Translations under genes and position numbers: made by a program
In this document: positions 26,904 through 26,941 of the stretch, in pieces
Numbering within the stretch: position 1 is the stretch's first letter
How the letters are laid out: each line of letters begins with the position of its first letter
NCBI RefSeq assembly: GCF_003018255.1
Contig: NZ_CP027440.1
Direction: 5' to 3' (one strand)
DNA: 64,000 nt
From: Escherichia coli
GTDB lineage: Bacteria > Pseudomonadota > Gammaproteobacteria > Enterobacterales > Enterobacteriaceae
Notes under the pieces: model-generated
The model's database searches: none
What the model saw: the letters and a program-made list of their open reading frames with translations, nothing else
Told to the model about the DNA's origin: nothing

Positions 26904-26941
26904 TCAGGTCGGAAATAGCATAAATATGGATTAAATTGCTG
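26904..26941 (-). promoter_or_regulatory. Candidate AraC I1-I2 activator site of the araE promoter
   Basis: In araE sense: cAGCAATTTAATCCATA then 4 nt then TGCTATTTCCGACCTGA; two 17-bp direct half-sites 21 bp apart matching the araBAD I1/I2 pattern (TAGC-N7-TCCATA; ...ACCTGA). Confidence 0.6.

What the first reader, a model, noticed from the sequence alone, without database searches (positions are those of the whole stretch)
26904..26941. AraC I1-I2-like direct repeat in the araE promoter
Two 17-bp half-sites in araE sense (cAGC-N7-TCCATA and TGCT-N7-ACCTGA) are separated by 4 bp, reproducing the 21-bp periodicity and conserved bases of the araBAD I1/I2 activator site, about 60-100 bp upstream of the araE ATG.
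Basis: partly seen in the sequence, partly recalled or inferred. Interest (0 to 1): 0.4.

Follow-up and report, generated by a model that had tools for sequence, protein, structure and literature searches.

The report
Known AraC activator site of araE
This is the well-known site where the arabinose sensor AraC switches on the E. coli arabinose transporter gene araE, so the finding is correct but ordinary. A conserved pair of possible extra AraC half-sites further upstream is the only part that may be new.

Summary
Window 26904..26941 (minus strand, araE sense) reads CAGCAATTTAATCCATA-TTTA-TGCTATTTCCGACCTGA, 62-99 bp upstream of the araE ATG at 26842. The window is E. coli chromosome (ygeA-araE-kduD).

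The composite araI pattern AGC-N7-TCCATA-N15-ACCTGA occurs only here, even with 2 mismatches (0.04 expected). A matrix built from 11 AraC half-sites of other promoters ranks the I1-like half first of 127,968 positions.

Across about 75 Enterobacterales araE loci, YAGC-N7-TCCATAT and CCTGAC are nearly invariant. So are a CRP site 13 nt upstream of I1 (the same gap as in PBAD) and a TAnTTT -10.

The I2-like half is weak. Only its 3' box is conserved, it overlaps the -35, and its "TGCT" is not a conserved A-box.

This is the araE promoter's AraC site, characterised by Stoner and Schleif (1983) and annotated since. It is already known and of low interest.

One thing was noticed beyond the finding. 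Two further same-strand TCCATA(T) islands lie 137 and 160 bp upstream of I1 (27062..27078 and 27085..27101). They are invariant in 58 of 76 loci at near-fixed distances, the same signature that the looping operator araO2 shows upstream of araBAD. They may be undescribed distal AraC half-sites.

The parts
26925..26941 (-). I1-like AraC half-site CAGCAATTTAATCCATA (A-box YAGC, N7, B-box TCCATA). This is the high-affinity, promoter-distal half of the activator site.
   Evidence: It ranks 1 of 127,968 half-site positions in the window, at 16.5 bits on a matrix from non-araE sites. It is 14/17 identical to araBAD I1. The boxes are conserved across genera, with majority fraction 0.88 for the A-box and 0.98 for the B-box against 0.65 for N7. 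All 58 loci in which the half-sites were scored exceed the 99.9th background percentile.
26904..26920 (-). I2-like AraC half-site TGCTATTTCCGACCTGA. This is the weak, promoter-proximal half, and its B-box ACCTGA overlaps the -35 by 4 bp.
   Evidence: It sits exactly 21 bp downstream of I1. TCCgACCTGA is 9/10 identical to araI2. The generic matrix gives -4.7 bits here and a median of -4.7 across species. Only CCTGA(C) is conserved. The A-box register has a majority fraction of 0.62.
26902..26907 (-). Inferred -35 hexamer CTGACA of the araE promoter.
   Evidence: Majority fraction 0.95 across 32 genera-level sequences. It holds the same position relative to I2 as CTGACG does in PBAD. It was not called by the consensus scan because the spacer is 19 bp. 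The start site was not measured here.
26877..26882 (-). Inferred -10 hexamer TATTTT (TAnTTT across genera). The start site is expected near 26870-26873.
   Evidence: It is a conserved block at a fixed distance from CTGAC (majority fraction 0.89). The start site is inferred, not measured.
26955..26970 (-). CRP site TGGAA-TATCCA-TCACA, centred about -92.5 from the inferred start.
   Evidence: TCACA is invariant and the left half TGnAA is conserved; Enterobacter has TGTAA-N6-TCACA, 9/10 of consensus. The gap from TCACA to I1 is 13 nt, identical to PBAD.
27062..27078 (-). up2: distal B-box-only, AraC-half-site-like element TTATGAAATAATCCATA. Its TCCATA lies 137 bp upstream of the I1 TCCATA. Function is putative.
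   Evidence: It ranks 21 of 127,968 in the window. TCCAT is invariant at -137..-139 or -127..-129 in 58 of 76 loci. Majority fraction is 0.97 against about 0.5 in the flanks. In 81% of species it scores above the 99.9th percentile.
27085..27101 (-). up1: distal B-box-only, AraC-half-site-like element GATCATCATAATCCATA (followed by T at 27084). It lies 160 bp upstream of I1 and 23 bp from up2. Function is putative.
   Evidence: It ranks 32 of 127,968 in the window. TCCATAT has a majority fraction of 1.00 across genera against 0.53-0.59 in the flanks. Klebsiella (L018, L042), Raoultella (L049) and Kosakonia (L052) versions read AATTGTCCATAT, a 12-mer identical to E. coli araO2.
27115..27136 (-). 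kduD intrinsic terminator. It marks the upstream limit of the araE regulatory region.
   Evidence: The terminator scan finds a 9-pair stem followed by a T run. The feature is conserved in the alignment.
25424..26842 (-). araE coding sequence (arabinose:H+ symporter, 472 aa), the regulated gene.
   Evidence: RefSeq annotation of identical E. coli DNA. NCBIfam sugar porter family match, E = 7e-149. MG1655 b2841.

Best explanation
The 38 bp are the araI-type activator site of the araE promoter.

1. [quoted passage not shown]
2. When arabinose is bound, the second subunit occupies the weak half-site 21 bp downstream (26904..26920). Its ACCTGA box overlaps the CTGACA -35 hexamer by 4 bp.
3. From there AraC recruits RNA polymerase to a promoter that is poor on its own (19-bp spacer, TATTTT -10).
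4. cAMP-CRP, bound 13 nt upstream of I1, assists.

The outcome is arabinose- and cAMP-dependent transcription of the low-affinity arabinose/H+ symporter gene.

Shown here: the sequence, its statistical uniqueness, its conservation, and its collinearity with PBAD. Taken from established knowledge and literature: AraC and CRP binding, arabinose dependence, and the light-switch mechanism. Inferred: the -35, the -10 and the start site in this strain.
For: - Identity of the locus: E. coli chromosome, with araE flanked by kduD and ygeA.
- Exact sequence and geometry.
- Uniqueness: the composite araI pattern is found once with up to 2 mismatches against 0.04 expected. It is the best araI match in the window. 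I1 ranks 1 of 127,968 with a matrix from araBAD, araFGH and araJ half-sites only.
- Phylogenetic footprint in about 75 Enterobacterales loci: the I1 boxes, CCTGAC, the CRP TCACA and the -10 are conserved while N7, linkers and spacers drift.
- Within E. coli the promoter is present in 5421 of 5426 genomes. Among the eight Escherichia sequences aligned, variants inside the site fall only at position 1 (C/T, both fit YAGC), one N7 position of I1 and the I2 N7 positions.
- Same CRP-to-I1 gap (13 nt) and same I2/-35 overlap as PBAD.
[quoted passage not shown] AraC and CRP sites, -10/-35 and the start site are marked in the araE region. PE is highly similar to PBAD (PMC3935871). araE is induced by arabinose and dependent on AraC (PMC11127945).
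Against: - The I2-like half is not recognisable as an AraC half-site with a generic matrix (-4.7 bits; median -4.7 across species).
- Its A-box register is not conserved, whereas araBAD I2 keeps AGCG in six genera.
- Its conserved CCTGAC could reflect the -35 hexamer alone.
- The consensus promoter scan did not call the araE promoter.
- No start-site or binding data could be examined directly. The primary footprinting paper and the AraC ChIP-seq paper are not held in the library.
Confidence: 0.93

Rival explanations
1. Only the I1 half is a sequence-specific AraC site. The 'I2' half is simply the -35 region of the promoter. The second AraC subunit docks there through position and protein-protein contacts, not through a conserved half-site, so the 'direct repeat' is half real.
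For: I2 scores below background on the generic matrix in every species. Its A-box register is not conserved, with a majority fraction of 0.62, about the same as the non-contact N7 positions. The conserved core CTGAC coincides with the -35 hexamer. araBAD I2, by contrast, keeps a conserved AGCG A-box.
Against: ACCTGA is identical to the araI2 B-box and sits in exact 21-bp register with I1. The C immediately 5' of CTGAC (26908), which lies outside the -35 hexamer, is also mostly conserved (CCTGAC). In the established PBAD model I2 is likewise a weak site overlapping the -35, so this is a matter of degree and not a different mechanism.
Confidence: 0.25
2. The resemblance to araI is a chance match in an AT-rich intergenic region and has no regulatory role.
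For: Raw identity to araI is only 24/38, and the next best window position reaches 23/38.
Against: The weighted pattern is unique, with 0.04 expected at 2 mismatches. I1 is the top half-site of the window. The boxes are conserved across many genera at a fixed distance from the ATG, the CRP site and the -10. The literature documents AraC control of araE.
Confidence: 0.01
3. The repeat is bound mainly by a different regulator, such as another AraC/XylS-family protein or XylR acting in pentose cross-regulation, and not by AraC.
For: Cross-regulation between the arabinose and xylose systems is reported in the literature (Koirala et al., mentioned).
Against: The boxes are those of AraC half-sites derived from araBAD, araFGH and araJ. 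The architecture copies PBAD base for base in its spacing. araE expression depends on AraC.
Confidence: 0.02

Closest known systems
araI (I1-I2) of the E. coli araBAD promoter, PBAD
   Same: - Two 17-bp half-sites in direct repeat with a 21-bp register.
- I1 is 14/17 identical, and the I2 B-box ACCTGA is identical.
- The proximal half overlaps a CTGAC(A/G) -35 hexamer.
- The CRP site has a perfect TCACA half exactly 13 nt upstream of I1.

   Different: - The I2 A-box is TAGC in araBAD, conserved as AGCG in six genera. In araE it is TGCT and not conserved.
- The -35 to -10 spacer is about one bp longer in E. coli araE.
- The distal elements lie 137 and 160 bp upstream as a pair, instead of a single O2 at 211 bp, and there is no divergent araC promoter or O1.
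araO2, the distal looping half-site of araBAD (comparison for the upstream pair only)
   Same: - An isolated, invariant RTCCATAT island with a degenerate A-box, in the same orientation as I1.
- Embedded in sequence that is otherwise unalignable between genera.
- Held at a nearly invariant distance from I1. O2 is at 211-212 bp in six genera. up1/up2 are at 160-162/137-139 bp, or 8-11 bp less.
- Klebsiella, Raoultella and Kosakonia up1 share the 12-mer AATTGTCCATAT with E. coli O2.
   Different: There are two elements 23 bp apart, not the 21-bp AraC register. Distances are shorter. No binding or looping data exist for them in anything I could read.
AraC sites of araFGH and araJ
   Same: They share the half-site consensus and 21-bp tandem pairs, for example CAGCAGATTAATCCATA + TAGCCTGGAAATCCTTG in araFGH.
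   Different: In araFGH the tandem pairs are further upstream and in the opposite orientation relative to the gene. araE instead copies the PBAD layout.

Membership tests
AraC activator site of the araI type | Two 17-bp half-sites in direct repeat, 4 bp apart (21-bp register) | tested here: met
   CAGCAATTTAATCCATA-TTTA-TGCTATTTCCGACCTGA at 26904..26941 on the minus strand.
AraC activator site of the araI type | Promoter-distal half-site matches the AraC consensus (A-box TAGC, N7, B-box TCCATA) | tested here: met
   16.5 bits, rank 1 of 127,968 on a matrix from 11 non-araE half-sites. YAGC and TCCATA are conserved across genera.
AraC activator site of the araI type | Promoter-proximal half-site is also a recognisable AraC half-site (both boxes) | tested here: inconclusive
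   The B-box ACCTGA is identical to araI2, but the A-box register (TGCT) neither matches nor is conserved. The generic matrix gives -4.7 bits. This is consistent with a weak I2 but cannot be distinguished from -35 conservation.
AraC activator site of the araI type | Proximal half-site overlaps the -35 hexamer of the regulated promoter | tested here: met
   ACCTGA (26904..26909) overlaps the conserved CTGACA (26902..26907), with a conserved TAnTTT -10 at 26877..26882. The promoter elements are inferred from conservation and PBAD collinearity; the start site was not measured.
AraC activator site of the araI type | AraC protein binds the site, and arabinose and AraC are required for transcription | not testable with these tools
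   Literature only: Stoner & Schleif 1983 (title cited; text not held), annotated AraC sites in the araE region, and AraC and arabinose dependence of araE.
AraC activator site of the araI type | Companion CRP site upstream of the distal half-site | tested here: met
   TGGAA-N6-TCACA at 26955..26970, 13 nt from I1 as in PBAD. TCACA is invariant across genera.
araO2-type distal looping half-site (for up1/up2 only) | Isolated AraC B-box half-site in I1 orientation, conserved at a fixed distance from I1 | tested here: met
   TCCAT is invariant in 58 of 76 loci, at offsets -160..-162/-137..-139 or -150..-152/-127..-129. The signature matches that measured for araO2 in six genera.
araO2-type distal looping half-site (for up1/up2 only) | AraC binds it and loops to I1 in the absence of arabinose, lowering basal expression | not testable with these tools
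   No binding or expression data are available. No paper in the library mentions such sites.

The most novel reading that the evidence does not exclude
The araE regulatory region carries a previously undescribed pair of araO2-like, B-box-only AraC half-sites (27062..27078 and 27085..27101), just downstream of the kduD terminator. Unliganded AraC would use them to loop to I1, so araE would be under the same loop/light-switch control as PBAD, with the adjacent CRP site acting as loop breaker. The pair keeps its distance to I1 to within 1-2 bp, or changes it by about one helical turn, across Enterobacteriaceae.
Probability: 0.35. Interest if true: 0.45.

Novelty: already known. Interest (0 to 1): 0.12.

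Why it matters
The finding itself only re-identifies a textbook regulatory site. It confirms that a sequence-only reader can recognise AraC sites, and it adds nothing to biology.

The comparative data do sharpen the picture of the araE promoter:
- The proximal half-site is conserved only where it overlaps the -35.
- The promoter is collinear with PBAD down to the 13-nt gap between the CRP site and I1.

If the conserved distal TCCATA pair is a real AraC target, looping-based repression would not be a peculiarity of araBAD. It would be a shared design of the arabinose regulon. That bears on the basal AraE level, which sets the all-or-none induction behaviour of PBAD expression systems.

Tried and rejected
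1. TGTGAATTGTTCACG, between the -35 and -10 of this strain, looked like a second CRP site. The half-sites are 5 nt apart, not 6. K-12 reads GCGTGAGTTGTTCACG, and the block is not conserved between genera. Rejected.

2. ATCCATC at 26958..26964 looked like a fourth AraC B-box. It lies inside the conserved CRP site (spacer plus TCACA) and scores 1.9 bits. It is filed under the CRP site, although the invariance of the spacer remains unexplained.

3. The 23-bp spacing of up1 and up2 equals the -35/-10 start-to-start distance. However, TCCATA matches TTGACA at 3/6 and TATAAT at 2/6, and no minus-strand promoter was called there. Rejected as a second promoter.

4. The generic AraC matrix was applied to tandem sites. 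The araE site ranks only 4th of the window because I2 is weak. Tandem matrix scoring is therefore not a good detector for araI-type sites.

5. Literature retrieval failed for Stringer et al. 2014, Gallegos et al. 1997 and Johnson & Schleif 1995. None are held, and the Stoner & Schleif 1983 text is also unavailable. A search for the site sequence as text found nothing. Searches for looping, footprinting or regulatory-region statements about araE found no description of distal sites.

6. The plus strand was checked. There are only consensus-level promoter-like hits at the chance rate (3 found, 2.1 expected) and a 74-aa ORF antisense to the araE start. Nothing there is supported.

Full report
**Observation.** The window is E. 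coli chromosome. A 501-bp stretch around the finding matches 5423 of 5426 complete E. coli genomes, with araE and kduD annotated under it. The flanking ORFs are a sugar-porter MFS transporter (araE, 25424..26842, minus strand), KduD (27157..27918) and the YgeA racemase. MG1655 has the same order. The site lies 62-99 bp upstream of the ATG at 26842.

**Is it more than chance?** I took the araBAD regulatory region from MG1655.
- The araE site is 24/38 identical to araI1-I2, the best of all 38-mers in the window on both strands, although the runner-up reaches 23/38.
- Restricting to the boxes that define AraC half-sites is far more discriminating. AGC-N7-TCCATA-N15-ACCTGA matches only here, even with up to 2 mismatches, against 0.04 expected from shuffles.
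- I then built a matrix from 11 half-sites that do not include araE: araBAD O2, O1L, O1R, I1 and I2, four from araFGH and two from araJ. These were located in MG1655 sequence as 21-bp-spaced pairs.
- With that matrix the I1-like 17-mer is the single best half-site of 127,968 positions, at 16.5 bits.
- The I2-like 17-mer scores -4.7 bits. Its likeness to araI2 is confined to TCCgACCTGA, which is 9/10 identical. TGCT does not align with TAGC.

**Conservation.** One scan of species-representative genomes with the AraE protein returned 80 loci from Escherichia, Salmonella, Citrobacter, Klebsiella, Enterobacter, Kosakonia and out to Erwinia, Mixta and Tatumella.
- In nearly all of them YAGC-N7-TCCATAT sits about 99 bp upstream of the ATG.
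- In an alignment of 32 sequences drawn from about two dozen genera, the majority fractions contrast sharply:

| Element | Majority fraction |
|---|---|
| I1 B-box | 0.98 |
| I1 A-box | 0.88 |
| I1 N7 | 0.65 |
| I2 A-box register | 0.62 |
| I2 N7 | 0.63 |
| CTGACA (-35) | 0.95 |

- So the distal half is a conserved AraC half-site in every lineage. All 58 loci in which the half-sites were scored exceed the 99.9th percentile of background.
- The proximal half is conserved only where it coincides with the -35 hexamer.
- Within E. coli the promoter is present in 5421 of 5426 genomes at 95% identity or more.
- Eight Escherichia sequences were aligned: the window, MG1655, four sampled genomes and the two Escherichia representative loci. 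Inside the site they differ only at position 1 (C/T), one N7 position of I1 and the I2 N7 positions.

**Promoter context.** Five more conserved blocks surround the site:
- a CRP site TGGAA-N6-TCACA at 26955..26970, with TCACA invariant and TGTAA-N6-TCACA in Enterobacter;
- the -35, CTGACA;
- a -10, TAnTTT, at 26877..26882;
- a block around GTCTTACT;
- the ribosome-binding site GGCAGGAAA.

The gap between the CRP TCACA and I1 is 13 nt, exactly as in PBAD. The I2/-35 overlap is the same as in PBAD. With a start site inferred near 26870, the AraC site spans about -34 to -71 and CRP is centred near -92.5, the PBAD layout. The consensus promoter scan did not call this promoter, because the spacer is 19 bp and the hexamers are weak. 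That fits an activator-dependent promoter.

**Mechanism.** The best explanation is the established one.
1. One AraC subunit sits on I1.
2. With arabinose, the other subunit occupies the weak I2 overlapping the -35 and recruits RNA polymerase.
3. CRP assists from its upstream site.

Binding and arabinose dependence are not testable here and rest on the literature:
- Stoner & Schleif 1983 determined the araE promoter sequence, start site and regulatory-protein binding sites. Only the reference could be seen; the text is not held.
- A later preprint marks AraC and CRP sites, -10/-35 and the start site in the araE region.
- PE is described as highly similar to PBAD.
- araE is arabinose-induced and AraC-dependent.

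The main nuance is whether I2 is a sequence-specific half-site or only the -35 plus positional docking. araBAD I2 keeps a conserved AGCG A-box in six genera, whereas araE I2 does not.

**Beyond the finding.** The araE upstream region holds three copies of TAATCCATAT on the same strand within 170 bp. Besides I1 there are two:
- up2, the 17-mer 27062..27078, with its TCCATA 137 bp upstream of the I1 TCCATA;
- up1, the 17-mer 27085..27101, 160 bp upstream.

Both lie just downstream of the kduD terminator. They rank 21 and 32 of 127,968 half-site positions in the window.

Their conservation across genomes is striking:
- TCCAT is invariant at both places in 58 of 76 loci, always 23 bp apart except for one genome with 33 bp.
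- Offsets from I1 are -160..-162/-137..-139 in Escherichia, Salmonella, Citrobacter, Enterobacter, Kosakonia, Lelliottia, Leclercia and Siccibacter.
- Offsets are -150..-152/-127..-129 in Klebsiella, Raoultella, Kluyvera and Phytobacter.
- The length changes are therefore about one helical turn.
- The intervening and flanking sequence is essentially unconserved, with majority fraction about 0.5 against 0.97-1.00 for the hexamers.
- The pair also stays with araE in species where the upstream neighbour is not kduD.
- A canonical A-box is absent, as in araO2.

To calibrate, I fetched araC-araB intergenic regions from five other genera through AraC homologues. The known looping operator araO2 shows the same signature. 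It is an invariant TTGTCCATAT island in unalignable sequence, in the same orientation as I1, at 211-212 bp from I1 in all six genera. Klebsiella, Raoultella and Kosakonia up1 even share the 12-mer AATTGTCCATAT with E. coli araO2.

I therefore think up1 and up2 are probably distal AraC half-sites, possibly for looping to I1 in the absence of arabinose. Points against:
- the 23-bp rather than 21-bp spacing;
- modest matrix scores for up1 (median 5.5 bits);
- one E. coli strain with a 7-bp deletion beside up2;
- no binding data.

I found no mention of such sites in the searchable literature. The key primary papers are not held, so I cannot say they are undescribed.

**Verdict.** It is the known AraC activator site of the araE promoter, so it is already known and of low interest. 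The only lead of possible novelty is the conserved distal TCCATA pair.

Noticed in passing
window 27062..27101 (minus strand): Two extra same-strand TCCATA(T) islands, up2 and up1, lie 137 and 160 bp upstream of the I1 TCCATA and 23 bp apart. They are invariant in 58 of 76 Enterobacterales araE loci at near-fixed offsets, or about one helical turn less in the Klebsiella group. The signature is the same as that of araO2 upstream of araBAD. They may be distal AraC half-sites.
   Followed up: partly
window 26960..26965 (minus strand, inside the CRP site): The 6-nt spacer of the CRP site is nearly invariant across genera (RTCCA, giving TCCATCACA), although CRP spacers are usually free to vary. It forms another TCCAT, 33 bp upstream of the I1 TCCATA. 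The reason is unknown.
   Followed up: partly
window 26884..26898 (minus strand, between -35 and -10): This strain has an inverted repeat TGTGAATTGTTCACG that looks CRP-like. The halves are 5 nt apart, K-12 carries two substitutions there (GCGTGAGTTGTTCACG), and the block is not conserved between genera.
   Followed up: yes
L089 (E. coli SK6988, NZ_CP167126.1), aligned to window about 27055..27061: A natural 7-bp deletion lies immediately downstream of up2. It shortens the up2-to-I1 distance from 137 to 130 bp in this one strain, making it a ready-made test of any spacing requirement.
   Followed up: no
window-wide; for example 23650..23657 (-), 27975..27982 (+), 28152..28159 (+): RTCCATAT occurs 11 times in the window against 3.5 expected (0 of 100 shuffles reach 11). 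Three copies are the araE sites. One lies just upstream of the 311-aa ORF at 23681..24616, and its 17-mer CAATCCGGTAATCCATA scores 10.6 bits. Two lie on the plus strand within the span of the ORF next to kduD (27948..28784, minus strand). None was examined further.
   Followed up: no
L091-L095 and L001 (araC-araB intergenic regions): In araBAD the I2 A-box (AGCG), O1L/O1R and O2 are conserved in six genera, and the O2-to-I1 distance is 211-212 bp throughout. The sequence between O2 and O1 is completely divergent.
   Followed up: yes
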